Of a DNA stretch of 64,000 nucleotides, positions 2-60,946 are shown in pieces (position 1 is the first letter of the stretch; each line of letters opens with the position of its first letter). This stretch comes from Acidimicrobiales bacterium (GTDB lineage Bacteria > Actinomycetota > Acidimicrobiia > Acidimicrobiales > Bin134): the NCBI GenBank assembly GCA_965208785.1, contig OZ242356.1, positions 114,202-178,201 of the forward strand, in the 5' to 3' direction. The translations under genes and the position numbers were made by a program. The notes under the pieces were generated by a model, which did not search any database, was not told the DNA's origin, and saw only the letters and a list, made by a program, of their open reading frames with translations.

Positions 2-1318
2 TTCCGCCGCCAGGGGATCACCTTCACGGTGTACGGGGGCGACGAGGGCACCGAGCGCACCTGGCCCATGGACCTGTTCCCCCGGATCATCGACGCCGGC
101 GAGTGGGCCATGCTGGAGCGGGGTCTGATCCAGCGGGTCACCGCCCTCAACCGGTTCCTCGACGACATCTATGCCGGCGAGCAGGCCATCATCGGCGACG
201 GCATCGTGCCCCGCTGGCTGATCACCTCGTGTACCGGCTTTGAGCGCGAGGCGATGAACGTGGCCGTCCCGCTGGGCGCCCGCTGCCTGGTGGCCGGCAT
301 CGACCTGGTGCGAGACGCCGACGGCGGCTACCGGGTGCTGGAGGACAACCTCCGCAATCCCAGCGGCATCTCCTACGTGATCGAGAACCGGGCCGCCATG
401 ACCAAGCTGCTGCCCGCCGCCTTCGCCGACCTGGCCGTTCGCTCGGTGGACCACTACGGGCGCTCCCTGCTGCGGGCGTTGCGCTCCATCGCCCCGCCGG
501 CCTGCGGCGACGAGCCCACGGTGGCGGTGCTCACACCCGGCATCTTCAACTCGGCCTACTTCGAGCACGCCTTTTTGGCCCGCAGCATGGGCGTGGAGCT
601 GGTGGAGGGGCGCGACCTGGTGGTGGACGACCATGTGGTGGCCATGCGCACCACTCGGGGCTTGGAGCGGGTGGACGTGATCTACCGCCGCATCGACGAC
701 GCCTTCTTGGACCCGGTGGTGTTCAACCCCCACTCGACCCTGGGAGTGCCGGGGCTTATGGCCGCGGCCCGGGCGGGAACGGTGTCGATCGCCAACTCGG
801 TGGGCAACGGGGTGGGCGACGACAAGGCGGTTTACGCCTACGCTCCCGACATGGTCCGCTACTACCTGGGCGAGGAGCCGATCATCCCCAACGCCGACAC
901 CTACCTGCTGTGGGAGGAGGACCAGCGGGCCGAGGTGCTCGACCGGATCGACCAGCTTGTGGTGAAGCCGGTGGCCGAATCGGGGGGCTACGGCATCGTG
1001 ATCGGCCCCACCGCCACCGACGCCGAGCTGGCCGAGGCCCGAGCCAAGATCCTCGCCGATCCCCGCAACTGGATCGCCCAGGAGGTGGTACACCTGTCGC
1101 GGCTGCCGGCGTGGAGCGGCGAGGGCTTCGCCCCCCGCCACATCGACCTGCGCCCCTTCGTGCTGAGCGGCGAGCAGGTGGAGGTTATCCCCGGCGGGCT
1201 CACCCGAGTGGCCCTGCGGGAGGGATCGCTCATCGTCAACAGCTCCCAGGGCGGCGGATCCAAGGACACCTGGGTGCTGGGCGATTCCGACCAACTCGAC
1301 CAGGCGGCCCCAAGCTAA
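2..1318 (+). CDS. circularly permuted type-2 ATP-grasp protein (5' end outside window)
   Basis: ORF 29..1318, but the frame stays open back to base 2 (FRRQGITFTVYGGDEG...). Sequence is typical of the ATP-grasp member of the ATP-grasp/alpha-E/transglutaminase triad. Stop TAA 1316-1318. Confidence 0.85.
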   Translation, partial: FRRQGITFTVYGGDEGTERTWPMDLFPRIIDAGEWAMLERGLIQRVTALNRFLDDIYAGEQAIIGDGIVPRWLITSCTGFEREAMNVAVPLGARCLVAGIDLVRDADGGYRVLEDNLRNPSGISYVIENRAAMTKLLPAAFADLAVRSVDHYGRSLLRALRSIAPPACGDEPTVAVLTPGIFNSAYFEHAFLARSMGVELVEGRDLVVDDHVVAMRTTRGLERVDVIYRRIDDAFLDPVVFNPHSTLGVPGLMAAARAGTVSIANSVGNGVGDDKAVYAYAPDMVRYYLGEEPIIPNADTYLLWEEDQRAEVLDRIDQLVVKPVAESGGYGIVIGPTATDAELAEARAKILADPRNWIAQEVVHLSRLPAWSGEGFAPRHIDLRPFVLSGEQVEVIPGGLTRVALREGSLIVNSSQGGGSKDTWVLGDSDQLDQAAPS

Positions 1319-1416
1319 TGCTGGCCCGACATGCAAGCGAACCAGGACACCCGAGCTGATGCTGGCCCGACATGCAAGCGAACCAGGACACCCGAGCTGA
1401 TGCTGGCCCGACATGC
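1318..1416 (+). repeat. 41-bp tandem repeat (2 full copies + 17-nt partial) at the ATP-grasp/alpha-E junction
   Basis: ATGCTGGCCCGACATGCAAGCGAACCAGGACACCCGAGCTG at 1318-1358 and 1359-1399. The first 17 nt recur at 1400-1416. Read directly. Confidence 0.95.
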
Positions 1417-2419
1417 TGAGGACATGTTCTGGGCCGGGCGCTATCTGGAGCGGGCCGAGGACACCGCCCGGATGGTGCGGGCCACCCTGCTCAGCACCGT
1501 GGCCGAGAGCCCGGCCCAGGCCATCGACCGAATGCAGAACCTGATCCGCACCCTGCGGCTGAAAATGCCCACACCCTCCGAGGATGTGCAGACCATGGCC
1601 CAGAGCCTGGCGCCGTCACCGCCGATGCTGCGCAGCGAAGCCGGGCTGGGCATCGACGTGCAAGCCGCGGCCTCGGCCTTGGTGGCCTCGCCCACATTGG
1701 CCGGATCGGTGGTGTTCTGCATCGGCCGGGCCCGGGAGAACTTCCGCTCCTTGCGAGACCAGATCCCGTCGGAACTGTGGGAGCAGGTCAACCAGGCCCA
1801 CTTGCGGCTCCGACAGGAAGACTTCGCCGTCACGATGGAGCAAGACCCGTTCCAAACCCTCGACTTCATCCGGGTGAGCTGCCAGTCGCTCACGGGGGTT
1901 ATCAGCACCTCCATGTCCCAGGGGGAGGGCTACCGGTTTCTGGTGCTGGGCCAGACGCTGGAGCGGGCGTTGATGACCTGCCGGCTGATCAGCGTCCGCT
2001 ACCCCGAGCTCGACGGGTCGTCCTACGACGAGATGGCGCTCACTTTGCGGTCGGTCTCGGCGTTGGAGGCTTATCAGCGAGCTAGCCAGTCGTCGCCGGT
2101 GGGCTCGGACGTGGCCCGGTTCCTGCTGTTGGACGGCTCATTTCCCCGATCGGTGCTCTATTGCCTGCGAGCCAGCGAAGACCACGTCGAAGCGTTGGCC
2201 GCCAACGGTCGGCCCCCGCCTCTCCGACGTTTGGGCCAGCTCCGCTCCGAGCTGGAGTACGCTGACTTCGACACCATGGTGGCCGACCTGCCCCATCATC
2301 TGTCCACTCTGGAAGACGGGGTGCGGGATGTGGCCATTCTGGTGGGCAACCACTTCTTCCGCAACGCCGAGTCTTTCGATCTTCACAGCCAGGCCATCAT
2401 GCCGGGGGTGTCGTCGTGA
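1400..2419 (+). CDS. alpha-E domain-containing protein
   Basis: MLARHAEDMFWAGRYLERAEDTARMV matches the canonical alpha-E N-terminus. The ORF-track start at 1331 would add 23 aa made only of repeat sequence. Confidence 0.85.
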   Translation: MLARHAEDMFWAGRYLERAEDTARMVRATLLSTVAESPAQAIDRMQNLIRTLRLKMPTPSEDVQTMAQSLAPSPPMLRSEAGLGIDVQAAASALVASPTLAGSVVFCIGRARENFRSLRDQIPSELWEQVNQAHLRLRQEDFAVTMEQDPFQTLDFIRVSCQSLTGVISTSMSQGEGYRFLVLGQTLERALMTCRLISVRYPELDGSSYDEMALTLRSVSALEAYQRASQSSPVGSDVARFLLLDGSFPRSVLYCLRASEDHVEALAANGRPPPLRRLGQLRSELEYADFDTMVADLPHHLSTLEDGVRDVAILVGNHFFRNAESFDLHSQAIMPGVSS

Positions 2420-2474
2420 GCACCGCATCGACTGGCTCCCCGTATTGCCGAACGCTCAGCCCCGGAGCCCCGTC

Positions 2475-3419
2475 GTGAAACTCGACATCTGCTATCGCAC
2501 AAGGTTCGCGTTCGACGCCCCGGCGCGCGAGTCGCAGAACGAGATGCGGGCCTGCCCGGTCACCAACGAGCGCCAGCAGCTCCTGGGCTACCGGATCACG
2601 GTGGAGCCGTCGGCGAGAACGCTGTCGTTCACCGACTACTGGGGCACCCGGGTGGACCAGTTCGGGGTCACCGATGCCCACACCGCGCTCGAGGTCACCG
2701 CGGAGGCCTCGGTGGAGACCCAAGACCCGCTGCCGATGTCGTCCGAGGTGCCGTTGGATGCGCTGGACGCTCCTGGATTCCGCCATGGCCACAACGAATA
2801 TCTCATCCGTACCCGCCACACCGGCTGGGACGACGCCATGGCCCGAGAGGGCCGAAGGCTGATCCAGGCCGAATCCACCGTGGTGGGGGCGGCGACGAGC
2901 ATTCACCGGTATGTGGCCAACCGGCTGTCGTATCAGCCCGGCGCCACCGAGATCGGCGAGTCGATCACCGACATCGTTGCCAAAGGGGTGGGCGTCTGCC
3001 AGGACTACGCCCACCTGGCCGTGGCCCTGTGCCGAAGCGTCGGCATCCCGGCCCGCTATGTGTCGGGCTACCTGTTTTCCAGCGACGACCGCACCGGCAG
3101 CATCGACGGCGACCTGGTGAGGGTGCAGACCCACGCCTGGTTCGAGGCGGCCATTCCCGGCGCGGGCTGGCTGCCGCTCGACCCCACCAACCAACTGGCG
3201 GTGGGCCGCCAGCACGTCAAGATCGGCCACGGGCGAGACTACGACGACGTCCCGCCTCTGCGGGGGGTGTATTCCGGCCCGGGCCGCCCAGAAGTGGATG
3301 CGTCGGTGGAGATCCGCCGAATGGACCCCTCGCGCCAGCCCTCAACCCTCATGCGGCCCTCGCTGCTGGCCTCAGTCAAGGCCCCCCGCACCCGACAACA
3401 GCAGCAGCAACAGCAGTGA
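2475..3419 (+). CDS. transglutaminase-like family protein
   Basis: N-terminus VKLDICYRTRFAFD. Cys-His-Asp core present (GVCQDYAHL, THAWFE, LDPTN). GTG 2475 chosen by family N-terminus and is in frame with ORF 2328..3419. Ends in a run of 7 Gln. Confidence 0.85.
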   Translation: MKLDICYRTRFAFDAPARESQNEMRACPVTNERQQLLGYRITVEPSARTLSFTDYWGTRVDQFGVTDAHTALEVTAEASVETQDPLPMSSEVPLDALDAPGFRHGHNEYLIRTRHTGWDDAMAREGRRLIQAESTVVGAATSIHRYVANRLSYQPGATEIGESITDIVAKGVGVCQDYAHLAVALCRSVGIPARYVSGYLFSSDDRTGSIDGDLVRVQTHAWFEAAIPGAGWLPLDPTNQLAVGRQHVKIGHGRDYDDVPPLRGVYSGPGRPEVDASVEIRRMDPSRQPSTLMRPSLLASVKAPRTRQQQQQQQ

Positions 3420-4308: not shown

Positions 4309-5249
4309 TTTCGCCGCACCCGGGGGTCGAGCACCGAGTAGAGAAGGTCGACCATCGTGGTCACCGTCACAAAGACCGCGGCGATCAGCGCCACCAGGGT
4401 TTGCACCAGCAGGAACTCCCGGGCCGCCACCCAGCTCACCAGCAGCGAGCCCACGCCGTCGAGATCAAACAAGAACTCCACCACGATGGCGCCGTTCACC
4501 GCTTGGGCGGCCTGGATTCCGAAGATGGTCAGCAGCGTGAAGCTAGACGGGCGCAGCACATGGCGGATGAGCACATGGCGAACCGGCAGGCCTTTGGCCC
4601 GGGCAGTGCCCACAAAATCTTCCTGCAAGGTGCCGATCACGTCGGTGCGCAGCAGTCGCAGATAAACGGGCAGCAGACCGGCGGCCAGCGTTACCGAAGG
4701 AAGGAACATCACCTTGAAATGGGCTACCAGCCCTTCGGAGATCGGCTGGTAGCCGCTCAAGTCGAACCAGTCGAGCCTCACCGCGAACACCAAAATCAGC
4801 ACCAGCCCGAGCACGAACACCGGGATGGACAAGAGCGCGAACGCCCCTCCGCTGGCGATCTTGTCGCTCACGCTGTTCTGCTTGTATCCCGACCACAGCC
4901 CAAGGGGAATGGCCGCGCCCAAAGCCAGGAACTGGGAGTAGACCAAAAGGAGCAGGGTTCGGGGCAGTGCGGTGTTTAGGGCCTCGCCGAACGAGCGCCC
5001 GGTGAGGTACGACTTGCCGAAGTCGCCGGTGAGCACGTCGCCGCCCCACTTGGCCCACTGCACGATGACCGGGTCGCCGAGGTTGCGGTCCCGCTCGCAT
5101 TCGGCAATCTGCTCCTCGGTGGCCGCCCCGCCGAACGCGGCCACGCACGGGTTGCCGGGGAGCAGGTTCAGCATCCAGTAGAACAGCAGCGTTACGGCCA
5201 GCACCACCAGGGCAAGCTGGGCCAAGCGCGTTCCGAAGAACCGGAGCAC
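4305..5249 (-). CDS. ABC transporter permease, peptide/nickel (DppB/OppB-like)
   Basis: 314-aa protein starting MLRFFGTRLAQLALVVL, typical of DppB/OppB family. Confidence 0.9.
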   Translation of the reverse strand: MLRFFGTRLAQLALVVLAVTLLFYWMLNLLPGNPCVAAFGGAATEEQIAECERDRNLGDPVIVQWAKWGGDVLTGDFGKSYLTGRSFGEALNTALPRTLLLLVYSQFLALGAAIPLGLWSGYKQNSVSDKIASGGAFALLSIPVFVLGLVLILVFAVRLDWFDLSGYQPISEGLVAHFKVMFLPSVTLAAGLLPVYLRLLRTDVIGTLQEDFVGTARAKGLPVRHVLIRHVLRPSSFTLLTIFGIQAAQAVNGAIVVEFLFDLDGVGSLLVSWVAAREFLLVQTLVALIAAVFVTVTTMVDLLYSVLDPRVRRK

Positions 5250-23361: not shown

Positions 23362-25566
23362 TCAGTTGAACACATCGCGGCAGTGAGTCCTGACCGCTTG
23401 GTCTCGGTTGAACTGTCTGGCCAGCGCATTTTGGCAGGCGGCGGACCGGCAGGTTTCTAGGCGCTCCAGCTCTTGGCGGATCGGGGTCCACCCCGACCAC
23501 AGCGCCTCTTGGGCCTGGGCCTCGGCGACGGTGAACGGCTCGGCGGTGTTCCACGGCGCGTCGGGCAGTGTCCACCCCAGCGCAACGAGCACCCGCGCCC
23601 AGTTGCCGGCGTAGCCGGGCCGGTTCTTGTTGTTGTCGTGGTATCGCTTCACGGTCCCGGCGATGTTGCCGCGGGCGGTGCAGACTTGGGGTGTCGGCTG
23701 GTTTCGGGAGTAGTCGGTGACGGGGTCGGCCCGCTCCGGCCACGGCGTCGGGGCCGGGGTCGGCTCGGGGTCCGGCTCCGGCGGGGGGGCGGGCATGGTG
23801 ATCTGAAGCGACGGGCCTTGATCGCCGTGGCCGCTGCCCAAATGGTGGGTGACGGTCCACGAGCCGGGGGCGTTGAACCGCGGGTAGCCGTCGTCGTGGT
23901 AGCGGTACACCTCGAAGGTCTTGGGCTGGTTCCAGTCCGAAGAGTTGAACGAAGTCCAAGCGGCCTGGTGGTTGTGGCCCGACGGCGCCCGCCTCTGGTC
24001 GCGGCACCGCCACAAGCACACGCCCAGCGCCCTCTGCGCGTTGGCCGAAGCGGGCGGGAGCGAAACCCGCGCGTATACCGACACCGGCCCGCCAGGATCG
24101 CGCGAGAGCCTCACGGTGTAGGAGACGGCATCGCCCTCGAACAGCGTCGCGGACGACTCAGAGACCACGATGGCCCGGCTTATGTCGTTGTCGCGCACCC
24201 GCACCGTGGCCGACCCCGCGCTCTGAGACACCCGGTAATCGTCGCCCGGCAACACCTCCAGAGTCACCGAGCCGTCAGGCTCCCACACGTCATCATCAAC
24301 GATGGACACGCCAGCCCACCCCGCAGACGAGAAGGTCCGCCGAACGCCTACTTGGCTGGCGGCTATGAAGTCGCCGCTTTGGCTCCATTGGTATCTGATA
24401 GGCCCGGTGAACCCTGAGGGGCGCTGCAAGTGAACAATGACGCTCTGCCCCTCGGTTTTCTGCTCGTTGCCTGCAAGCAGTCTCACCCCGACCACGGGCC
24501 GGTCATCGACTTCGACTCGGGGTGCCACGACCACGGGCACGCTGAGCCGCCCCCTGGTCGATCCGCTGTCGGACATCGCGACTCTCCCCGCGGCCGACGG
24601 GGCGCCGACGCTGAACGTGAGCGCCGTCGCCTGCTGGGTGACGTTGTTGTCGCCGTCGCGCCGCTCGCGCACCGCCCCCAAAAGCCAGTGCTGCGCGTAC
24701 AGCCTCGCGTTCTGGTGGCCGCTGCCGGCAAGGCTCACGCCGCCCGACAGGCTGAGCCGCGTCCACTGAGGCCCGTCGGCGGTGAACGTCAAAGTGAACT
24801 CGCCGCCCTCGGTCACCATCGGGACACAAGCGTTCCGCCCCGCATACGGGGCGTGCTGCTGGTGGTTGGCAGCCGGGCCGACATAGCGCACCGTGTACGC
24901 CACGCCGTCGCGGCGGGAGCCGGTGAAGGTCAGCGCCCGCTCGCCGCTGCAATCCACAAGCCCCGGAGTCCCGCCCACCACCGGCGTGCCCGCTTTGCTG
25001 ACACCGACAGCCCTGAACTTCAGCGTCGCCGAAGGGTTGCTGTTCCAAGTGGAAGCGGTGACGGAGTAGGTTCTGAAATAAGTGCCGTCGGTGATGCTCC
25101 AGCCGGGCAGGCCCCCGGAGTCCTCGCCGCCCGAAGTCGTGGCGCGAATACCCGCCGTAGCCCTGTTAGCGCCCACGTCGATCACCAGGAAATAGCTGGT
25201 GGTCGCCGCCAGGTCGATGCCGGTGCTCGTGAACGTGAGCACCTGGTCGGAGTTGGAGACGGGGAAGCTGGAGGGGTTGGCCAGGGTGCCCAGCGAGCCG
25301 CCCGGAAACCCGCCCGACGACGAGTGGATGCTGGCGGTCAGATCCGAACTTGAGAGGTCGTTAGTGATATCGGAGAACTCCACTTCGACGCTGCGGAGGC
25401 TGTAGCCCGCGCTGTTGGCGCCGGTCGTGAACCCCTGGGCGTAGTCATTGCCCAAAGACGCGCTGGGTCCGTCTGACTGGCCCAAATTGCCGGTGAAGGT
25501 CAGCGCCGACTGCGCCAAAAGCGGCGACGCCGCCCCCAAACCGGCCGCGGCCACAGCCACAACCAC
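23362..25566 (-). CDS. large secreted protein of unknown family (Calx-beta-like segments)
   Basis: 734-aa ORF with a hydrophobic N-terminus (...AVAAAGLGAASPLLAQS). Contains VSIVDDD and VRVRDND motifs, a Pro-rich linker and a Cys-containing C-terminal domain. The true start likely depends on poly-G tract length (GTG 25636 with 17 or 20 G). Confidence 0.75.
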   Translation of the reverse strand: MVVAVAAAGLGAASPLLAQSALTFTGNLGQSDGPSASLGNDYAQGFTTGANSAGYSLRSVEVEFSDITNDLSSSDLTASIHSSSGGFPGGSLGTLANPSSFPVSNSDQVLTFTSTGIDLAATTSYFLVIDVGANRATAGIRATTSGGEDSGGLPGWSITDGTYFRTYSVTASTWNSNPSATLKFRAVGVSKAGTPVVGGTPGLVDCSGERALTFTGSRRDGVAYTVRYVGPAANHQQHAPYAGRNACVPMVTEGGEFTLTFTADGPQWTRLSLSGGVSLAGSGHQNARLYAQHWLLGAVRERRDGDNNVTQQATALTFSVGAPSAAGRVAMSDSGSTRGRLSVPVVVAPRVEVDDRPVVGVRLLAGNEQKTEGQSVIVHLQRPSGFTGPIRYQWSQSGDFIAASQVGVRRTFSSAGWAGVSIVDDDVWEPDGSVTLEVLPGDDYRVSQSAGSATVRVRDNDISRAIVVSESSATLFEGDAVSYTVRLSRDPGGPVSVYARVSLPPASANAQRALGVCLWRCRDQRRAPSGHNHQAAWTSFNSSDWNQPKTFEVYRYHDDGYPRFNAPGSWTVTHHLGSGHGDQGPSLQITMPAPPPEPDPEPTPAPTPWPERADPVTDYSRNQPTPQVCTARGNIAGTVKRYHDNNKNRPGYAGNWARVLVALGWTLPDAPWNTAEPFTVAEAQAQEALWSGWTPIRQELERLETCRSAACQNALARQFNRDQAVRTHCRDVFN

Positions 25567-25613
25567 CAGCGCGACGAAAACAGACCTGAGCCCTCGCCTG
25601 CCCCTAACTAGGT

Positions 25614-25631
25614 GGGGGGGGGGGGGGGGGG
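25614..25631. repeat. homopolymer G18 (C18 on the coding strand)
   Basis: Counted directly: 7+10+1 G. Lies between GTG 25636 and the signal-peptide codons of gene 23362..25566. Confidence 0.95.
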
Positions 25632-26066
25632 TTCACAGCACACACCAGCACAGACCGCGCTGCGCCCACCGCGTCCGAGCCCGCCCCCGCGGAAACCCCG
25701 CCCATGCCCACGCCTGTTCCTGCCGTCATTGCTTGCTCCCGTCTCGCGCACCAAGCGCGCACCAACCTGCGCGCATGCTACCACTCCGCGAGCAACACCC
25801 ATTAACCCAAGCCCCCACCCCTGCCCCCGCAAGCCCGCGACCGAGCCGGCGGCGAGGACGCCGCGGCCGGCCGCAGCGGTTCGCGGGCGAGGCCACCGCC
25901 GACGTGCTGACGGGTGAATCTGTCACCGAGTCCCAGTAGCGTCGTCACCGGTCGCGGCTCCGTACCAAGCCGTCCAAGCATCCACCACCGGGCGAGGTGC
26001 GACATGGGATCATTCCCAAGGGAGGCCGATCGCAGGCTCCCGTTCAGCATCGGCGAAGGAGGACTT

Positions 26067-28690: not shown

Positions 28691-28759
28691 GGCAAGTCTA
28701 CGTATCGGACGGCTCGAACTATGCGAATCGGACGGTCCCAGCTATATGGATCGGACAGT
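28691..28759 (-). repeat. three 23-bp-phased direct repeats directly upstream of the ATPase gene (array A)
   Basis: Core ATCGGAC(G/A)G on the + strand at 28704, 28727 and 28750. The proximal unit carries TAGACT 7 nt before GTG 28687. Confidence 0.9.
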
Positions 28760-29062: not shown

Positions 29063-29131
29063 TACTACCGATTTTCGACACCCAGGAATGCTGATTTTCG
29101 ACACCCTATGATGTCGGTTTTCGACACCCAA
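29063..29131 (-). repeat. three 23-bp-phased direct repeats directly upstream of the ATPase pseudogene (array B)
   Basis: Core TTTTCGACACCC on the + strand at 29072, 29095 and 29118. The proximal unit carries TAGTAT 6 nt before GTG 29055. Confidence 0.9.
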
Positions 29132-41862: not shown

Positions 41863-42021
41863 CTGCCGGGCGACAACCACGTCATAGAAGATGGCGATGC
41901 CGGGTTCTCTCTCTTCCAAATTTATTGAGCCTGCGTGGAAACGCGGGGTGGGAGTGGTTTGAAGGTCCGTGATCTGGGGTCGGGGCCGGGGCCCTGCCCC
42001 TCGCGGCCGAACCGTTCGTAG

Positions 42022-42095
<74 letters not shown>

Positions 42096-49637: not shown

Positions 49638-51038
49638 GTGACCGCAGAAGACCAGAAGTGGAGCTTCGTGGTGGCGGCCAATCGGCTCCCGGTGAGGCGG
49701 GTGCGGGAGGGCGATGCGGCCAAGTGGGTTCCCAGCCCCGGCGGGCTGGTATCGGCCATGCGCCCGGTGATGTCGGGCAATCCCAATGCGGTGTGGGCGG
49801 GCTGGCCCGGCGTTCCCGGCCTAGGGGCAGAGCCCTTCGACGTCGACGGCTTCCAGTGCCATCCGGTCAGCGTCAGCCAGGGAGAGCTCCAACTTTTCTA
49901 CGAGGGGTTCTCCAACGCCACCCTGTGGCCACTGTTCCACGATGCCCTGGTGCCCCCCGAGTACCACCGCACCTGGTGGGACGCCTATCGAACGGTCAAC
50001 CAGCGCTATGCCGACACCGTGGCCGACCTCGCCGCCCCCGGCGCCGCCGTGTGGATTCACGACTACCACCTGTTGCTGGTTCCCGGCCTGCTTCGGAAGG
50101 TCCGGCCCGATCTGAGAATCGGGTTCTTCCTCCACATCCCATTCCCGGCCCGCGAGCTGTACATCCGGCTGCCGTGGCGGACCGAGATCATCGACGGCCT
50201 GCTAGGCGCCGATTTGATCGGCCTGCAAACCCCGCTGGGCGCCGACAACTTCTGTAGGGCGGTGACCCGCATCACCGGGATCAAGACCACCGGCAAGACC
50301 ATCCACCACAACGGACGAACCACCCAGGTGGGCGCCTTCCCCATCGGCATCGACACCGAGCGGATCGCCGGTTTGGTCGCCGATCCTGCGGTACAGGCAA
50401 GGGCGGTCGAAATCCGACAATCCCTGGGCTCGCCCGCAACTGTGCTCCTGGGAGTGGACCGCCTCGACTACACTAAGGGCATCGAGGTTCGGCTGCGAGC
50501 CTTCCGGGAGCTGTTGGCCGAGAGGCGGCTATCGGTGGACGACTGCGTTTTGGTGCAGATCGCCGAACCCAGCCGCTCCCAGGTCACCGGCTATGCCGAG
50601 GTTCGCCGGGAGGTGGAGCAGCTAGTGGGCGATGTGAACGGGAATTTCGGGGTGATGGGCCGCCCAGTGGTCCACTACCTCCACCAGAGCCACCCCATCG
50701 AGGAGCTGGTGGCCATGTACCTCATTGCCGATGTGATGCTGGTGACCCCGCTGCGCGACGGCATGAACCTGGTGGCCAAGGAATACGTGGCCTGCCGCCC
50801 CGACAACACCGGGGTGCTGGTGCTGTCGGAGTTCACCGGGGCGGCCCAAGAGCTGCGGGCCGCAGAGTTGATCAACCCCCACGACATCGAGGGGCTGAAG
50901 TCCGCCATGGAGGCCGCGGCCCACCGCCCCTCCGCTGAAGCCGGCGCGGCCATGCGGACCATGAGGCGCCTCGTTCGGTCCAACACCGCCCAGCGGTGGG
51001 CCGAGCGCTTCTTGGCCCGTCTCGAGGCCAGCCCATGA
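49638..51038 (+). CDS. otsA: trehalose-6-phosphate synthase (GT20)
   Basis: Contains FVVAANRLPV and IHDYHLLLVP. TAATTT lies 6 nt before GTG 49638. Confidence 0.9.
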   Translation: MTAEDQKWSFVVAANRLPVRRVREGDAAKWVPSPGGLVSAMRPVMSGNPNAVWAGWPGVPGLGAEPFDVDGFQCHPVSVSQGELQLFYEGFSNATLWPLFHDALVPPEYHRTWWDAYRTVNQRYADTVADLAAPGAAVWIHDYHLLLVPGLLRKVRPDLRIGFFLHIPFPARELYIRLPWRTEIIDGLLGADLIGLQTPLGADNFCRAVTRITGIKTTGKTIHHNGRTTQVGAFPIGIDTERIAGLVADPAVQARAVEIRQSLGSPATVLLGVDRLDYTKGIEVRLRAFRELLAERRLSVDDCVLVQIAEPSRSQVTGYAEVRREVEQLVGDVNGNFGVMGRPVVHYLHQSHPIEELVAMYLIADVMLVTPLRDGMNLVAKEYVACRPDNTGVLVLSEFTGAAQELRAAELINPHDIEGLKSAMEAAAHRPSAEAGAAMRTMRRLVRSNTAQRWAERFLARLEASP

Positions 51039-51084
51039 CCGGAACCAACCCGTGACCGAGGCCAGCCCATGACCGAGGCCAGCC
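51024..51084 (+). repeat. direct/tandem repeats across the otsA stop and the next gene's start
   Basis: GAGGCCAGCCCATGACCG at 51024-41 and 51058-75. GAGGCCAGCC recurs at 51075-84. Confidence 0.95.
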
Positions 51085-53642
51085 GGACTGGGCCGATGAT
51101 GTCGGCCGATGAGGTGGACGCCCGGCTGCGGGAACTGGCCCGAGTGCCGGTGCTGCTGGTGGCCTGCGACTACGACGGCACGCTGGCCCCCATCATCGAC
51201 AATCCCGATGAGGCCCGGCCCCTCCGGGAGTCGGTGGCCGGGCTGCGCCAGCTTGCCGCCATGCCCGACACCCATGTGGCGGTGATCTCGGGGCGGGCGC
51301 TGCGGGATCTGGCCGCGCTGAGCCGCCTGCCCGAGGAGATCCACCTGGTGGGAAGCCACGGCACCGAGTTCGATGTCGGCTTCGCCGACGACCTCTCTGC
51401 CGAGCAGCGGGATATGCGCGACCGGATAATGGGGGAGCTGAACGACGTCGCCCGGCGCGACCACGGATTCATCATCGAGCCCAAACCGGCCGGCGTGGCC
51501 TTCCACTATCGCAAGGCCGACCCCGAGATCGCCGGAGCCGCGGTGACCGATGTGCTGAAGGGCCCCGGCAAGTGGAAGGGCGTCCACATCAAGGTCGGAA
51601 AGATGGTGGTGGAGCTGTCGGTGCTGAACCTCAACAAGGGCGACGCTTTGGACCGGCTGAGGACCGACGTGTCAGCCGAAGCGGTGTTCTTCGCCGGCGA
51701 CGACGCCACCGACGAAGACGCATTCGCCCGATTGGCCGGGCCTGATCTGGGTTTGAAGATCGGCCACGGACATACCCTGGCCCGAGCCCGGGTGGACGAC
51801 CCCCAGTCGGTGGCCCAGATGCTCGCCCTTCTGGGCGAGCGGCGCCGGGCATGGCTCATGGGCGAGCACGCCCTGCCCATCGAGCGCCACAGCCTTCTCA
51901 GCGACCAGCGGACGGTGGCGCTGGTCACCGCCGATGGCTCGGTGAATTGGATGTGCCACCCAAGAGCTGACTCCCCGGCGGTGTTCGCCGGTCTGCTGGG
52001 CGGCGCCAGAGCGGGCCACTTCTCGATCAGCCGCCACGACGACAGCCCGCCCATCTCCCACCGCTATCTGGACGGCACCATGATCACCGAGACCCGGTGG
52101 TCGGATGTGACGGTGACCGACTACCTGGACTGCTCCGACCAGCGACCCACCGAACCGGCCGGGCGCACCAACTTGATCCGGACCATCGACGGAACCGGAC
52201 GGATCCGCATCGAGTTCGCCCCCCGGCTGGATTTCGGCCGAGCTCCCACCGGACTGCACTTGATCGACGGCGGCTTGGAAGTGTGGGGCGCGGCCGAGAC
52301 CATACTCCTGCTATCGCCGGGAGTGAACTGGGAAATCGTCGACCATGGCCCCCACCAGACGGCAGTCGCCGACGTGCAGCTCGACGGAACCCCTCTGGAA
52401 CTGATGTTGCGCCTCGGCGTCCGCGGCCGCCCCCACCGCACCGACTTGACCGAAACCGACCGTCGACAGATCACCGAGCACCACTGGCGAGACTGGGCAC
52501 AAAAGCTGACGCTGCCGTCGGTGGCCTCCGAGGAAGTGGAGCGGTCGGCGCTGGCGCTCAAAGCGCTGTGCCACCAGCCCTCGGGAGCGATCCTGGCCGC
52601 AGCCACCACCAGCCTGCCCGAGGTGATGGGCGGGGTCCGCAATTGGGACTACCGCTACTGCTGGCCCCGAGACGCCGCCATGAGCGCAGCCGCCCTGCTG
52701 GCCTTGGGAAGCAGTCAGGAAGCTGGGGATCTTCTCGACTGGATCCTCGAACGAGTCGAGCACCTCCCCAGCCCCGAGCAGCTTCGGCCGGTGTATCCGC
52801 TGGTGGGCGACGAGGCCCTGCCCGAGGCGGTGCTGCCCGAGCTGGCCGGCTATGCGGGGAGCCGCCCGGTGCGGATAGGCAACGCCGCCGAGCACCAGGT
52901 GCAGCTCGACGTGTTCGGCCCGGTGGTCGATCTGGCCTGGCGGCTGTGCGAAGCCGAGGTGACCCTGACCGACCGGCACTGGGAGGTAGTCAAAGCAGTG
53001 GTGGGAGCGGTGGCCACCCGCTGGGGCGAGCCCGACCACGGTATCTGGGAGGAGCGCCGCCCGCCCCGCCACCATGTCCACTCCAAGGCCATGTGCTGGA
53101 TGGCGGTGGACCGGGCCATCAAGATCGCCGAGCGCATCGACCCCGAGATGGCCTCGTATTGGCGCCCGCTTCGCCACCAGATCGCCGCCGATGTGATCTT
53201 GAACGGGTGGAATGAGCAGCGCCGCTCCTACACGACCGCCTACGGTTCGACCGACATGGACGCCAGCCTGCTGTGGATAGGTCTGAGCGGGCTGCTGCCC
53301 CCCAGCGACTCCCGCTTCGTGTCCACCCTCAAAGCGGTGGAAAGCGAACTGCGCGACGGCCAGACGGTGTACCGCTACCGCCACGACGACGGGCTGCCCG
53401 GCACCGAGGGCGGCTTTTTGATCTGCACGTCGTGGCTGATCGAGGCCTACGTTCTGATCGGCCAGCTCGACGACGCCCGGGCCCTGTTCGACCGCTACCT
53501 CGACCTTTGCGGCCCCACCGGCCTGCTCCCCGAACAGTACGACCCGGCCAGCGAGCGCCTCTTGGGAAACCACCCCCAGGCCTACTCCCACCTCGGCCTC
53601 ATCAATGCCGCCTTGGCCCTCTCCGGCGCCAACGGCGGCTAA
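51069..53642 (+). CDS. fusion protein: trehalose-phosphatase (HAD) + glycoside hydrolase family 15 domain
   Basis: N-terminal LLVACDYDGTLAPI motif (OtsB-like). C-terminal ~600 aa carry the GH15 hallmark WDYRYCWPRDAA. Confidence 0.85.
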   Translation: MTEASRTGPMMSADEVDARLRELARVPVLLVACDYDGTLAPIIDNPDEARPLRESVAGLRQLAAMPDTHVAVISGRALRDLAALSRLPEEIHLVGSHGTEFDVGFADDLSAEQRDMRDRIMGELNDVARRDHGFIIEPKPAGVAFHYRKADPEIAGAAVTDVLKGPGKWKGVHIKVGKMVVELSVLNLNKGDALDRLRTDVSAEAVFFAGDDATDEDAFARLAGPDLGLKIGHGHTLARARVDDPQSVAQMLALLGERRRAWLMGEHALPIERHSLLSDQRTVALVTADGSVNWMCHPRADSPAVFAGLLGGARAGHFSISRHDDSPPISHRYLDGTMITETRWSDVTVTDYLDCSDQRPTEPAGRTNLIRTIDGTGRIRIEFAPRLDFGRAPTGLHLIDGGLEVWGAAETILLLSPGVNWEIVDHGPHQTAVADVQLDGTPLELMLRLGVRGRPHRTDLTETDRRQITEHHWRDWAQKLTLPSVASEEVERSALALKALCHQPSGAILAAATTSLPEVMGGVRNWDYRYCWPRDAAMSAAALLALGSSQEAGDLLDWILERVEHLPSPEQLRPVYPLVGDEALPEAVLPELAGYAGSRPVRIGNAAEHQVQLDVFGPVVDLAWRLCEAEVTLTDRHWEVVKAVVGAVATRWGEPDHGIWEERRPPRHHVHSKAMCWMAVDRAIKIAERIDPEMASYWRPLRHQIAADVILNGWNEQRRSYTTAYGSTDMDASLLWIGLSGLLPPSDSRFVSTLKAVESELRDGQTVYRYRHDDGLPGTEGGFLICTSWLIEAYVLIGQLDDARALFDRYLDLCGPTGLLPEQYDPASERLLGNHPQAYSHLGLINAALALSGANGG

Positions 53643-57792: not shown

Positions 57793-59873
57793 CCGGCCAG
57801 GCCGGATCAGGAGGCGGCGTGCCGGTGCTGTCGGTGCGGAACCTGGAGGTGGTGTTCCCCACTCCCGACGGAGACGTGCAGGCGGTTCGGGGGGTGAGCT
57901 GGGACGTCTTTGAAAACGAAGTGCTGGCCATTGGGGGCGAGTCGGGCTCGGGCAAGTCGGTGAGCGTGATGGCGGCATTGGGCCTGCTGCCGACCAACGC
58001 CCAGGTGAGCGGATCGGTTTCCTACCGGGGCCGCGACGTGCTGGCCATGACCAAAAAGGAACTCGAGCTGCTTCGGGGTTCGGCCATCTCCATGGTGTTC
58101 CAAGATCCGATGACCTCGCTGAACCCGGTGATGACCGTCGGAGCCCAGATCGCCGAAGGGGTCCGCATCCACCAGCGGGCCAAAGCGGCCATCGCCCGGT
58201 CGAGAGCAGTCGAGCTGCTCGATCTGGTGGGCATCCCCAACGCCCCCCAGCGGGTGGACTCCTATCCCCACGAGCTGTCGGGAGGGATGCGCCAGCGGGC
58301 GATGATCGCCATGGCCATCGCCAACGACCCCGATCTGCTGATCGCCGATGAGCCCACCACCGCTCTCGACGTCACCATCCAGGCCCAGGTGCTGGAGGTG
58401 CTGGAGCGGGCCCGCCAGGCCACGGGCTCGGCCCTGGTCATCATCACCCATGACCTGGGCATTGTGGCCAGAACGGCCCACCGCCTGGCGGTCATGTACG
58501 CCGGGCGGCTGGCCGAGACCGGCCCGGTGGACCCGGTGTTCGCCCGGCCAACCCACCCCTACACAGCAGGGCTGCTGGCCTCTATCCCCAGACTGGACTC
58601 GGCGGCGAACCGGCGGCTCGTCCCCATCGACGGCACCACGCCATCGATGCTGGCCCCGCCGCCGGGTTGCGCCTTCGCCCCCCGCTGCGACTGGTCTACC
58701 GATGCCTGCACCCATGAGGTGCCTGATCTGAGGGCGGTTGGTGAGCACGGACAGTCCTCGGCCTGCATCCGCACCGAGGAGTTCCAAGCCCGGGCCGAGC
58801 CCGCGACTGAGGTGGAGATTCAGCTTGAGCCGCTCGACCGGGCATTCCCCCGCCGCCCCCAATACACGCCGGCGGACACCGCCCTTTTGCAGGTGAGGGA
58901 GCTGTTCAAGGACTTCCCCATTCGAGCCAAGGGCCTCCGACGAAAGGTGGTGGGCACGGTCCAGGCCGTGAACGGAGTGTCGCTGCACATCGACAAGGGG
59001 GAGACATTGGGGCTGGTGGGCGAGTCCGGCTCGGGAAAGTCCACCGTGGCCCGCTGCATCCTCCGGCTCACCGAGCCCACATCGGGATCAGTGGTTTTCG
59101 ATGGAGCGGAGTTGACATCGCTGGACCGGCGGCAGATGCGGAACCGCCGCCGGGCCATGCAGATCGTCTTCCAAGATCCGATGGCCTCTCTGGACCCGCG
59201 GATGACGGTGTCGTCGATCATCTCCGAGCCGCTCCGTGTTCACCGCATGGGCGACGACATCCGCGATCGGGCAGCAGAGCTCTTGCAACTGGTGGGCTTG
59301 CACCCCCAGCACGGAAATCGCTATCCCCACGAGTTCTCCGGGGGCCAGCGCCAGCGCATCGGCATCGCCCGGGCCCTGGCCCTCTCGCCCGATCTGTTGA
59401 TCCTGGACGAGCCGGTATCGGCTTTGGATGTGAGCGTGCAGGCCGGGGTTCTGAATCTGCTGGAAGACATCCAAGGGAAGCTGGACCTCACCTATCTGTT
59501 CGTGGCCCATGACCTGTCGGTGGTCCACCACATTTCTGATCGAGTTGCGGTCATGTACTTGGGACGGATCGTCGAGGTCGGCACCGCGCAGCAGGTCTAC
59601 GAACTGCCCGCCCATCCCTACACCCAGGCCCTGCTGTCGGCCGTGCCCGTCCCCGATCCGCCCCGAGAGCGCAAGCGGCGGCGAATAGTGCTCGAGGGCG
59701 ATGTGCCCAATCCCGCCGACCCTCCGTCGGGCTGTCGATTCCGCACCCGGTGCTGGAAGGCCCAATCGATTTGCGCCGAACACGACCCGGAGTTGCTGGA
59801 CTTGGGGGTGGGACACCCGGTTGCCTGCCACTTCCCCACCCCCGACGACCTTACGGGGTCGGAGCACCGATAG
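57789..59873 (+). CDS. fused double ABC ATPase (DppD-DppF in one polypeptide)
   Basis: Two Walker A sites (GESGSGKS twice) and two signatures ([16 protein letters not shown]). ATG 57789 overlaps the permease stop (ATGA). Confidence 0.9.
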
Positions 59874-59884
59874 GGTTTCGCCCA

Positions 59885-60790
59885 GTGCCCGACGTCGTCA
59901 TCTCCGCCCGCGGGGTGCAGAAGAGCTACGGCTCGAACCACGTTCTCCAGGGGCTGGACTGCGACGTAGGGCGGGGCATCACCGGGCTTCTGGGGCCCAA
60001 CGGCGCCGGCAAGAGCACCTTCATGGGGCTGGTGCTGGGGTTGCGCCCCCGCCAAGGAGGCGTCCTCAACGTGCTGGGGGCGGATCCCGGGCAGAGCGGG
60101 CCTGAGCTGCGGGCCCGGCTGGGCTACGCCCCCGAGCACCACGACCTGCCCGGCGACGTGCAGGCCGCCGATTTGGTGCGCCACATCGCCCAGCTCCACG
60201 GCCTGCCCCGGCGGGCAGCCACAGAGCGGGCCAGCGACGCACTGTGGCAGGTGGGCTTGGGCGAGGAGCGGTTCCGCCCCATCGGCACGATGTCCACCGG
60301 ACAGCGCCAGCGGGTGAAGATGGCCCAGGCCCTGGCCCACGATCCCGACCTGCTGCTGCTCGACGAGCCCACCGACGGCCTCGACCCGGTGCAGCGCGAC
60401 GACATGCTGGCCCTCATCCGCCGGGTGGGCCGCGAGTTCGGCATCGACATCCTGCTGTCGTCGCACCTGTTGGAGGAAGTGGAGCGGGTGTGCGACTCGG
60501 TGGTCATTCTCGCCAACGGTGTGGTGGGCCACAGCGGACCCCTCAACCAAGCGGATTCCGCGGCATCAGGCATAAAGGTGGAACTGGACTCCGACCCCCA
60601 GTCTCTGGCCGCAGCACTAGTAGCGCACGGCGCGGAAGCAGCCGTCGACGGGCACATCCTCACCGTTACCGGACACGATGCGCTGACCGATCTGGTTCGA
60701 GACTTGGCGGCCGACCTGGGGCTGGGGCTGCGGCGGCTGGAGCCCCGCCGCACCACTCTCGAAGACGTGTTCATCGAGGCCTCCCGATGA
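59885..60790 (+). CDS. ABC transporter ATP-binding protein (ABC-2/DrrA-like), no adjacent permease
   Basis: Walker A GPNGAGKST, signature MSTGQRQR, Walker B LLLLDEP. GTG 59885. Confidence 0.85.
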   Translation: MPDVVISARGVQKSYGSNHVLQGLDCDVGRGITGLLGPNGAGKSTFMGLVLGLRPRQGGVLNVLGADPGQSGPELRARLGYAPEHHDLPGDVQAADLVRHIAQLHGLPRRAATERASDALWQVGLGEERFRPIGTMSTGQRQRVKMAQALAHDPDLLLLDEPTDGLDPVQRDDMLALIRRVGREFGIDILLSSHLLEEVERVCDSVVILANGVVGHSGPLNQADSAASGIKVELDSDPQSLAAALVAHGAEAAVDGHILTVTGHDALTDLVRDLAADLGLGLRRLEPRRTTLEDVFIEASR

Positions 60791-60836
60791 CCGAGGCCCG
60801 CATCCGCGACCGAGGCCCGCATCCGCGACCGAGGCC
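60789..60836 (+). repeat. 19-bp tandem repeat x2.5 starting inside the ATGA stop/start of the orphan ATPase gene
   Basis: GACCGAGGCCCGCATCCGC at 60789-807 and 60808-826. Partial copy GACCGAGGCC at 60827-836. Confidence 0.95.
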
Positions 60837-60946
60837 ATTTGACCGGTGAAGGGTCTTGCCGTGGACCACGGCTCCGACTGGGACGATATCTCTGAACTGC
60901 GCCAACAAGGAGAGTTGGGATAGCGCCTGCCCGTCCAGTGAAGCCG

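What the first reader, a model, noticed from the sequence alone, without database searches (positions are those of the whole stretch)
1316..1416. 41-bp tandem repeat converts a TAATG gene overlap into a chain of two 13-codon mini-ORFs
The ATP-grasp stop (TAA 1316-1318) overlaps an ATG at 1318. That ATG opens MLARHASEPGHPS*, whose TGA overlaps the next ATG at 1359. The same 13-aa ORF follows, and its TGA overlaps ATG 1400, the genuine alpha-E start (MLARHAEDMFW...).

Each unit shifts the frame by -1, so three identical start contexts occur in three frames, linked TGATG to TGATG. This could act as a termination-reinitiation relay that tunes the ATP-grasp:alpha-E ratio. It could also be a recent slippage duplication. 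Annotation pipelines may instead pick ATG 1331 and add a 23-aa artefactual N-terminus.
Basis: seen in the sequence. Interest (0 to 1): 0.55.

Follow-up and report, generated by a model that had tools for sequence, protein, structure and literature searches.

The report
Gene-boundary stutter making relay mini-ORFs
The 41-bp repeat is a real, inherited duplication of the boundary between two genes; each extra copy is a tiny reading frame that probably hands the ribosome on to the next gene, and the same trick recurs at several gene boundaries in this group of sponge-associated bacteria.

Summary
Window 1318-1358 and 1359-1399 are identical 41-bp units, and 1400-1416 is a third partial copy that forms the true alpha-E start. 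This is not an assembly artefact: four other assemblies of the same species (99.6-99.7% identical) also carry two units.

The unit itself is old. One copy, a 59-bp variant or at least two copies occur in seven other species-level lineages of the sponge symbiont 'Ca. Poriferisocius'. Independent 44-bp and 68-bp duplications sit at the same junction in two further species.

The same architecture appears at three more junctions: alpha-E|transglutaminase (window 2416-2478), otsA|otsB (window 51023-51084) and a permease pair. In all 11 arrays I count as independent, every mini-ORF starts on the preceding stop and stops on the next start. Ten have unit lengths of 2 mod 3 (P about 1e-4). The peptides themselves are not conserved.

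Best reading: slippage duplications of overlapping stop/start junctions survive only when they remain translated termination-reinitiation relays. Tuning of the protein ratio is untested. NCBI annotation does add the predicted artefactual 23-aa N-terminus.

The closest known analogue is the mycobacterial MIRU, but these units are copied from their own flanks and are not dispersed.

The parts
2..1318 (+). Circularly permuted ATP-grasp gene, with its 5' end cut by the window edge. The variable C-terminal tail lies beyond the Pfam domain. The stop is TAA at 1316-1318.
   Evidence: Pfam PF14403/PF04174, E 6e-159, covering residues 18-395 of 429. The ORF is listed. Conspecific loci give 493 aa.
1293..1317 (+). 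ATP-grasp tail (AACTCGACCAGGCGGCCCCAAGCTA). This is the diverged source copy of the 3' 24 nt of the repeat unit (AAGCGAACCAGGACACCCGAGCTG).
   Evidence: The period-41 identity plot starts about 1309. The mini-ORF C-terminus SEPGHPS* parallels the ATP-grasp C-terminus LDQAAPS* in the same frame.
1318..1359 (+). Relay mini-ORF 1 (unit 1, 1318-1358): MLARHASEPGHPS*. Its start overlaps the ATP-grasp TAA (TAATG), and its TGA overlaps the next ATG.
1359..1400 (+). Relay mini-ORF 2 (unit 2, 1359-1399), identical to unit 1. Its TGA at 1398-1400 overlaps the alpha-E ATG.
   Evidence: Conspecific assemblies have the same two units with 1 nt difference between them.
1400..2419 (+). Alpha-E gene (339 aa). 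Positions 1400-1416 form the third, partial copy of the repeat.
   Evidence: Pfam PF04168, E 6.5e-73, match from residue 1. Identical to P0101. Homologues in 37 loci all match from residue 1.
1331..1399 (+). Artefactual 23-codon N-terminal extension created when ATG 1331 is chosen as the alpha-E start. It is an out-of-frame reading of the units.
   Evidence: The 362-aa ORF appears. NCBI annotates the 362-aa form in conspecific MAGs (P0098).
2416..2478 (+). Relay mini-ORF 3 between alpha-E and the transglutaminase: GTG-VSTASTGSPYCRTLSPGAPS*. Its start overlaps the alpha-E TGA (GTGA), and its TGA overlaps GTG 2475.
   Evidence: Its 3' end (CCCGGAGCCCCGTCGTGA) is a diverged copy of the alpha-E 3' end (CCGGGGGTGTCGTCGTGA).
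2475..3419 (+). Transglutaminase-like gene, last gene of the coupled chain.
   Evidence: Pfam PF08379 and PF01841.
51023..51084 (+). Second junction stutter, between otsA (49638-51038) and the otsB-trehalase fusion (51069-53642). Period 17, 3.6 copies. Mini-ORFs ATG51035-TGA51055 (MTGTNP*) and GTG51052-TGA51072 (VTEASP*) are chained ATGA/GTGA/ATGA.

Best explanation
The repeat is a tandem duplication of the gene boundary itself. Each unit combines the last ~24 nt of the ATP-grasp gene, the overlapping stop/start, and the first 17 nt of alpha-E. It most likely arose by replication slippage at microhomology.

Because the unit length is 2 mod 3, each extra copy forms a 13-codon ORF. That ORF begins on the previous stop codon and ends on the next start codon. 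A ribosome finishing the ATP-grasp gene can therefore re-initiate, translate the mini-ORF, terminate and re-initiate again. Translational coupling is carried across 82 nt that would otherwise break it.

The mini-ORFs act in cis. Their peptides are by-products.

Shown here:
- The repeat is real and inherited.
- It varies in copy number and length between species.
- Independent equivalents exist at this junction and at three others.
- All of them keep the stop/start chain.

Inferred:
- Selection removes junction duplications that break the chain.
- The mini-ORFs are translated.
- Alpha-E depends on coupling.
For: **Reality of the two-copy state.** Four further assemblies of the species have two units: L042 and L043 (NCBI MAGs) and L044 and L045 (two ENA biosamples). 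They are 99.6-99.7% identical to the window over 3.5-5.4 kb.

**Age and dynamics at this junction.**
- One homologous unit occurs in L041, L002, L004, L024 and L037.
- L046 has a 59-bp form, equal to 41 bp plus an in-frame 18-bp internal duplication.
- L003 has at least 2 units, with a 100-N gap inside the array.
- Most loci, including L001, have no unit.

**Independent origins at the same junction.** L034 has a 44-bp unit that is an evident copy of its own flanks, with CCGA microhomology at the boundaries. L030 has two 68-bp units.

**Other junctions.**
- Alpha-E|transglutaminase: the chain is intact in 43 of 43 loci, with inserts of 59, 65, 44, 2x38 and 17 nt.
- otsA|otsB: 0 units, 1x38, 2x38 and 2x17.
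- Permease pair in L034: 63+62 nt forming one 42-codon ORF.

**Frame rule.** I count 11 independent arrays and all preserve the chain. Ten have unit length 2 mod 3, binomial P = 1.3e-4.

**Peptide not constrained.** Unit divergence between species is about 0.12-0.15 per site. The alpha-E gene shows 0.18 at codon position 3 and 0.05 at positions 1+2. Nonsynonymous changes in the mini-ORF are frequent.

**Weak Shine-Dalgarno.** In the unit-bearing clade the pairing energy before alpha-E is -4.0 kcal/mol, against a background mean of -3.6 and -9.5 in other clades.

**No alternative element.** There is no RNA structure (z = -0.25), no Rfam hit, and no promoter or terminator.

**Published experiments.** Gaps of about 20 nt almost abolish termination-reinitiation coupling (PMC10666635 abstract). 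This explains why an untranslated 41-82-nt spacer would be costly.
Against: - There are no expression or ribosome-profiling data, so translation of the mini-ORFs is inferred.
- In L003 the first unit begins ATA rather than ATG, which breaks one link. This is a short-read scaffold with a gap in the array.
- The unit contains AGGA 12-15 nt upstream of the next ATG, so weak independent initiation at alpha-E cannot be excluded.
- The frame rule could reflect selection against long out-of-frame translation across the downstream start, rather than selection for ribosome hand-over.
- I judged the independence of the 11 events by eye from unit sequences and a neighbour-joining tree without support values. 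The 41- and 68-bp units might share an origin.
- Retention of ATG and TGA within the 41-bp clade is not by itself statistically significant.
Confidence: 0.7

Rival explanations
1. Neutral slippage scar. The duplication is real but irrelevant to translation. The mini-ORFs are not translated, or their translation does not matter, and alpha-E initiates on its own.
For: - The unit evolves at a near-neutral rate and its peptide is not conserved.
- There is an AGGA upstream of each ATG.
- The first unit in L003 has ATA instead of ATG.
- These genomes carry many other short tandem repeats.
Against: - All 11 independent arrays preserve the chain, P about 1e-4 for the length class.
- The 59-nt alpha-E|transglutaminase insert is only 64% identical between the window and L005, yet it has no indel and keeps both overlaps.
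- The AGGA pairing energy is at background level.
Confidence: 0.15
2. Adaptive rheostat or contingency locus. Copy number changes frequently, and each added reinitiation step lowers alpha-E relative to the ATP-grasp, tuning the stoichiometry.
For: - Copy number differs between species: 0, 1, 2 and at least 2.
- Units within a genome are more alike than units between genomes, which suggests turnover.
- Two of the few differences between the window and its conspecifics fall inside the junction, at positions 1317 and 1353.
Against: - All five assemblies of the species have exactly two units.
- The same stutter occurs at unrelated junctions (otsA|otsB, permeases), which argues for a general tolerated mutation rather than a system-specific regulator.
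- There are no expression data.
Confidence: 0.12
3. Assembly artefact. The reads would collapse the array to one copy.
For: Short tandem repeats can be mis-assembled. The L003 scaffold has a 100-N gap inside its array.
Against: The two-unit state was assembled independently in L042-L045, from at least two biosamples and two pipelines. In those assemblies the two units differ by one base, so they cannot be a simple stutter of one copy. Homologous units occur in complete long-read chromosomes of other species.
Confidence: 0.02
4. The mini-ORFs encode functional peptides, for example substrates of the ATP-grasp/transglutaminase system. Alternatively, the units are insertions of a mobile MIRU-like element.
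For: The operon belongs to a family predicted to modify peptides (my own recollection of the Iyer/Aravind analysis, not checked here). MIRUs have the same coupled small-ORF layout (PMC12548453).
Against: - Peptide sequences vary freely: MLARHASEPGHPS, MPARHASDSGHQS, MLARHPSQPGAPS, MLARHADNPGEGPR and 22-aa forms.
- Equivalent mini-ORFs occur at otsA|otsB and at a permease junction.
- Each unit is a chimera of its own two flanking genes.
- The unit-specific 24-mer occurs nowhere else in the 64 kb, even with 3 mismatches allowed.
Confidence: 0.03

Closest known systems
Mycobacterial interspersed repetitive units (MIRUs), e.g. the senX3-regX3 intercistronic array (Supply et al. 1997, as summarised in the review PMC12548453)
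   Same: Both are tandem units of tens of base pairs between genes of an operon in Actinomycetota. Each carries a short ORF coupled by overlapping stop/start codons to the flanking gene. The insertion therefore has minimal impact on downstream expression. Copy number varies between lineages.
   Different: MIRUs are a dispersed family of related sequences thought to be mobile and to insert at start codons. Here each unit is a local copy of the two gene ends that flank it. Units at different junctions are unrelated in sequence, and none is found elsewhere in the window. The host is an acidimicrobial sponge symbiont, not a mycobacterium.
Translational coupling by termination-reinitiation at overlapping gene pairs (ATGA / TGATG) in bacteria and archaea (Huber et al. 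2019, PMC6728339; 2023, PMC10666635)
   Same: The motifs are the same -4 and -1 overlaps. Eight plain overlapping junctions occur in the window itself. The proposed mechanism of each relay step is exactly this one.
   Different: The known cases are single overlaps between two real genes. Here 1-2 non-conserved mini-ORFs are interposed to give 2-3 successive overlaps. The relay was generated by duplicating the overlap.
Synthetic bicistronic design (BCD) and 'ribosome-delivering' uORFs of mycobacteria (cited in PMC12548453, section 11)
   Same: In both, a short leader cistron has a stop that overlaps the start of the gene of interest. Its only role is to deliver a ribosome.
   Different: A BCD leader has its own strong ribosome-binding site and embeds a strong Shine-Dalgarno for the downstream gene. 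Here the leader is itself entered by reinitiation from the upstream gene, and the embedded AGGA is weak.

Membership tests
MIRU-type intergenic repeat | Tandem units of about 40-100 bp between co-directional genes of an operon | tested here: met
   41-bp x 2.4 array between the ATP-grasp and alpha-E genes. Other arrays have 38-68-bp units, and some have 17-bp units.
MIRU-type intergenic repeat | Each unit contains a small ORF whose start and stop overlap those of neighbouring ORFs | tested here: met
   A chain-walk from the upstream stop reaches the downstream gene at three window junctions, in 43 of 43 loci for alpha-E|transglutaminase, and in all other arrays found except the ATA-initiated first unit of L003.
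MIRU-type intergenic repeat | Units belong to one sequence family dispersed at many loci of the genome (interspersed, possibly mobile) | tested here: not met
   The unit-specific 24-mer occurs only at 1335 and 1376 in the 64 kb with up to 3 mismatches allowed. Units at the four junctions are each copies of their own flanking gene ends. The whole genome was not available.
MIRU-type intergenic repeat | Copy-number polymorphism between strains (VNTR behaviour) | tested here: inconclusive
   Copy number differs between species: 0, 1, 2 and at least 2. It is 2 in all five assemblies of the window's species.
Termination-reinitiation coupled gene pair | Co-directional ORFs with a 4-nt (NTGA) or 1-nt (TGATG/TAATG) stop/start overlap | tested here: met
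   TAATG at 1316-1320, TGATG at 1357-1361 and 1398-1402, GTGA at 2416-2419 and 2475-2478.
Termination-reinitiation coupled gene pair | Translation of the downstream ORF depends on translation of the upstream ORF | not testable with these tools
   This needs reporter assays or ribosome profiling. Indirect support comes from the frame rule (P = 1.3e-4) and the weak Shine-Dalgarno.
Bicistronic-design-like leader cistron | A strong Shine-Dalgarno for the downstream gene embedded in the leader ORF | tested here: not met
   The best pairing to ACCUCCUUU is -4.0 kcal/mol (AGGA), against a background mean of -3.6. The anti-SD sequence is assumed, because no 16S gene lies in the window.
Alpha-E protein with a genuine N-terminal extension (362-aa annotation) | The extension is conserved in homologues and covered by the domain model | tested here: not met
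   The Pfam match starts at residue 1 of the 339-aa form. Homologues in 37 loci match from residue 1. The extension is an out-of-frame reading of the repeat.

The most novel reading that the evidence does not exclude
Junction stutter may be a general, self-templated way for operons in this lineage, and perhaps in other SD-poor, overlap-rich Actinomycetota, to grow translated relay mini-ORFs. Three consequences could follow. First, it could be the evolutionary seed of MIRU-like elements. Second, it could be a source of new N- and C-terminal tails and of gene fusions: with two units the ATP-grasp and alpha-E genes are in the same frame, separated by one stop codon. Third, it could act as a heritable, reversible rheostat of subunit stoichiometry through the number of reinitiation steps.
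Probability: 0.2. Interest if true: 0.8.

Novelty: new variant of a known kind. Interest (0 to 1): 0.6.

Why it matters
It provides a natural experiment on translational coupling. At least eleven junction expansions in uncultivated bacteria all kept an unbroken chain of overlapping stop and start codons. This suggests that ribosome hand-over between these genes is under selection, and that an untranslated spacer is not tolerated.

It suggests how MIRU-like coupled repeats, short translated ORFs between genes and variable protein termini can be born from the genes' own ends.

It is also directly testable with reporter constructs carrying 0, 1 or 2 units.

On the practical side, it flags a systematic annotation error. 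Gene callers extend the downstream protein into the repeat, giving 362 or 358 aa instead of 339 aa.

Tried and rejected
- **Exact-protein look-ups** of the window's alpha-E (362-aa form, 339-aa form and P0101) found nothing. Conspecific contigs were reached instead through the P0001 cluster.
- **RNA element:** the fold of 1280-1450 is no better than shuffles (z = -0.25). Rfam finds only a tRNA-Met at 42021-42095.
- **Promoter or terminator in the junction:** none found.
- **Strong Shine-Dalgarno created by the unit:** rejected, because AGGA pairs at background level.
- **Dispersed or mobile element:** rejected within the window.
- **Peptide function:** rejected on non-conservation and on occurrence at unrelated operons.
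- **Selection on ATG/TGA within the 41-bp clade alone:** too few sequences to be significant. This was my estimate, not a formal test.
- **Literature:** searches for Poriferisocius, for MIRU plus coupling, and for intercistronic tandem repeats found no description of self-templated junction repeats.
- **The 63-bp permease array in L034** first looked like a 0 mod 3 exception. Its second unit is 62 bp, so the total is 125 nt and the chain is kept.

Full report
**1.

The sequence at 1316-1416 is exactly as described.
- The ATP-grasp gene ends TAA at 1316-1318.
- ATG 1318 opens MLARHASEPGHPS, whose TGA (1357-1359) shares its A with ATG 1359.
- An identical 41-bp unit follows, and its TGA (1398-1400) shares its A with ATG 1400.
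- ATG 1400 opens MLARHAEDMFWAGRYLERAE.

Tandem Repeats Finder reports 1309-1416, period 41, 2.6 copies, 97% matches and score 202, the top score in the window. The three ATGs are in three different frames.

ATG 1400 is the true alpha-E start. The Pfam Alpha-E model aligns from residue 1. Every homologous locus begins MLARHAE at the stop/start overlap.

The unit is a chimera. Its first 17 nt copy the alpha-E 5' end. Its last 24 nt are a diverged copy of the ATP-grasp 3' tail, read in the ATP-grasp frame (SEPGHPS* against LDQAAPS*).

**2. Organism and operon**

The genes are a circularly permuted ATP-grasp, alpha-E and a transglutaminase-like protein. Thirty-eight related loci all come from sponge-associated Acidimicrobiia, 'Candidatus Poriferisocius' or the Sva0996 group. 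The window's alpha-E is identical to a protein on a 3.54-Mb contig (P0101).

**3. It is not an artefact, and the unit is not young**

Four other assemblies of the same species carry two units. These are two NCBI MAGs and two ENA metagenome assemblies from different biosamples, 99.6-99.7% identical to the window. In them the two units differ by one base, and the ATP-grasp stop is TGA rather than TAA.

The state of the junction in other lineages is as follows.

| Lineage | State at ATP-grasp/alpha-E junction |
|---|---|
| Sister species L041 (about 92% DNA identity to the window) | one 41-bp unit |
| Sister species L046 (about 90% DNA identity) | one 59-bp unit = 41 bp plus an in-frame 18-bp internal duplication (MPARHPSEPGHPSEPGHAS*) |
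| L002, L004, L024, L037 | one homologous 41-bp unit each |
| L003 | at least two units, with a 100-N scaffold gap inside the array |
| Most other loci, including the close L001 | none |

On a neighbour-joining tree the carriers group together with L001, and the window lies nearby. The unit therefore predates these species and has been gained, lost, expanded and contracted. Losses are expected to be clean, because the unit is flanked by direct repeats.

**4. The same thing happened independently, here and elsewhere**

At the same junction:
- L034 has a 44-bp unit that is an obvious copy of its own flanks, with CCGA microhomology at the boundaries.
- L030 has two 68-bp units encoding 22-aa ORFs.

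At the alpha-E|transglutaminase junction:
- Most loci have a plain GTGA or ATGA overlap.
- The window has a 59-nt insert at 2416-2478 that encodes VSTASTGSPYCRTLSPGAPS*. It starts on the alpha-E stop and stops on the transglutaminase start.
- Its 3' end is a decayed copy of the alpha-E 3' end.
- Homologous or independent inserts of 59, 65, 44, 2x38 and 17 nt occur in other loci.
- The chain is intact in 43 of 43 loci.

At otsA|otsB:
- The window has two 17-bp units at 51023-51084, encoding MTGTNP* and VTEASP* chained ATGA/GTGA/ATGA.
- Relatives have 0 units, one 38-bp unit or two 38-bp units.

At a permease|permease junction, L034 has 63+62 nt forming one 42-codon ORF that again ends on the true start.

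In the window as a whole, 8 junctions are plain overlaps and 3 are relays.

**5. The frame rule**

A junction duplication can have any length. Only a length of 2 mod 3 makes the extra ORF end on the copied stop codon.
- I count 11 independent arrays, and 10 have unit lengths of 2 mod 3 (41, 44, 68, 59, 65, 44, 38, 17, 38, 17).
- The eleventh has a total length of 2 mod 3.
- The binomial probability of at least 10 of 11 at p = 1/3 is 1.3e-4.
- The secondary 18-bp event in L046 keeps the frame as well.
- The 59-nt insert is only 64% identical between the window and L005, yet it has no indel and keeps both overlaps.

The peptide sequences, by contrast, drift. Unit divergence is about 0.12-0.15 per site. 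The alpha-E gene shows 0.18 at third codon positions and 0.05 at positions 1+2, and the mini-ORFs carry many amino-acid changes.

The one broken link is the first unit of L003, which begins ATA instead of ATG.

**6. Mechanism**

In the unit-bearing clade the Shine-Dalgarno pairing upstream of alpha-E is at background level. It is -4.0 kcal/mol against a background mean of -3.6, whereas other clades have GGAGG at -9.5. The anti-SD sequence was assumed. There is no RNA structure, Rfam family, promoter or terminator in the junction.

Published reporter experiments show that intergenic gaps of about 20 nt almost abolish termination-reinitiation coupling in E. coli and Haloferax (PMC10666635 abstract).

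Taken together, slippage duplicates the overlapping boundary. Duplications that leave the extra DNA translated as a relay keep the downstream gene coupled and so persist. The others are removed.

This part is inference. Whether each extra step lowers alpha-E output (tuning) is untested. All five assemblies of the species have the same copy number.

**7. Annotation**

NCBI annotates the conspecific alpha-E as 362 aa (MDE0115895.1, MDE0215574.1). JGI calls a 358-aa form in the sister species. ENA aa. The extensions are out-of-frame readings of the repeat and should be trimmed to ATG 1400.

**8. Comparison with what is known**

The closest described system is the mycobacterial MIRU. A recent review describes MIRUs as short repeats that insert at start codons, so that an internal ORF becomes coupled with -4 spacing to the gene. 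This minimises the effect on expression (PMC12548453).

The layout and the phylum are shared with MIRUs. The difference is origin. These units are templated by their own flanks, are unrelated between junctions, and are not dispersed in the 64 kb examined. The individual steps correspond to ordinary termination-reinitiation coupling (PMC6728339, PMC10666635). The logic resembles synthetic bicistronic designs.

I found no description of self-templated junction relays in the searchable literature. That search was limited.

**9. Verdict**

This is a real feature and a new variant of a known kind. Its 'tuning' and 'recent' elements are only partly supported, and its annotation warning is confirmed. 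Interest is moderate to fairly high, mainly because the pattern is recurrent, statistically clear and experimentally tractable.

Noticed in passing
window 2416-2478: A 20-codon ORF (GTG-VSTASTGSPYCRTLSPGAPS*) fills the alpha-E/transglutaminase spacer exactly. It has GTGA overlaps at both ends. Other species have 0, 17, 38x2, 44, 59 or 65 nt here, and the chain is always intact.
   Followed up: yes
window 51023-51084 (otsA 49638-51038 / otsB-trehalase fusion 51069-53642): A 17-bp x 3.6 tandem repeat at the gene boundary forms two 6-codon relay ORFs (ATGA/GTGA/ATGA). Relatives have 0, 1 or 2 units of 38 bp. One SNP separates the window from conspecific L047 inside the array.
   Followed up: yes
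window 60787-60849: A perfect 19-bp x 2.5 tandem repeat (GACCGAGGCCCGCATCCGC) starts at the ATGA overlap at the end of an ABC ATPase gene (59750-60790). It forms a 20-codon ORF, MTEARIRDRGPHPRPRPFDR*. No co-directional gene follows, because the next gene is convergent. The period is 1 mod 3, so a junction repeat without a downstream gene to couple does not follow the frame rule.
   Followed up: partly
window 25614-25631: A run of 18 G lies just after CTAACTAG, at the edge of the long minus-strand ORF 23362-25632. It could be a slippage-prone tract or a long-read homopolymer problem.
   Followed up: no
window 28699-28756 and 29068-29130: Two separate imperfect 23-bp tandem arrays, (TACGAATCGGACGG...) x2.5 and (CCGATTTTCGACACCC...) x2.8, lie in what looks like non-coding DNA. 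They may be protein-binding iterons.
   Followed up: no
window 3390-3419; about 4940-5020 in most loci: The transglutaminase-like protein ends in a run of glutamines (...TRQQQQQQQ*). The run is encoded by a CAG/CAA repeat whose length varies between species. Glutamine is the acyl-donor residue of classical transglutaminases.
   Followed up: no
L034 6099-6251 (minus strand); L030 1229-1344 and 186-364; L024 5031-5139; L003 4976-5024: These genomes carry many other perfect or near-perfect tandem repeats at gene ends. Examples are a 38-bp x 3.1 array next to a tRNA 3' end, a 71-bp x 2.5 duplication of a gene start with its upstream region, and 16- and 36-bp arrays between convergent genes.
   Followed up: partly
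window 1317 and 1353 compared with L042-L045: Two of the very few differences between the window and its 99.7%-identical conspecifics fall inside the junction. One changes the stop (TAA against TGA). The other is CCCGAGCTG against CCCAAGCTG in unit 1. This suggests unit turnover or gene conversion in the array.
   Followed up: partly
L042/L044 upstream of the ATP-grasp gene (outside the window): In conspecific contigs a MazE/AbrB-type small gene overlaps the ATP-grasp start by 4 nt. PIN and CcdA-like toxin-antitoxin genes lie upstream of it.
   Followed up: no
N-termini of the otsB homologues P0103-P0140: The N-terminal 7-15 residues before the conserved ...EEVDARLRELARVPVLLVACDYDGT vary in length between species. 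They often contain an internal Met at the point where shorter homologues start. This would fit old junction duplications that became in-frame extensions.
   Followed up: no
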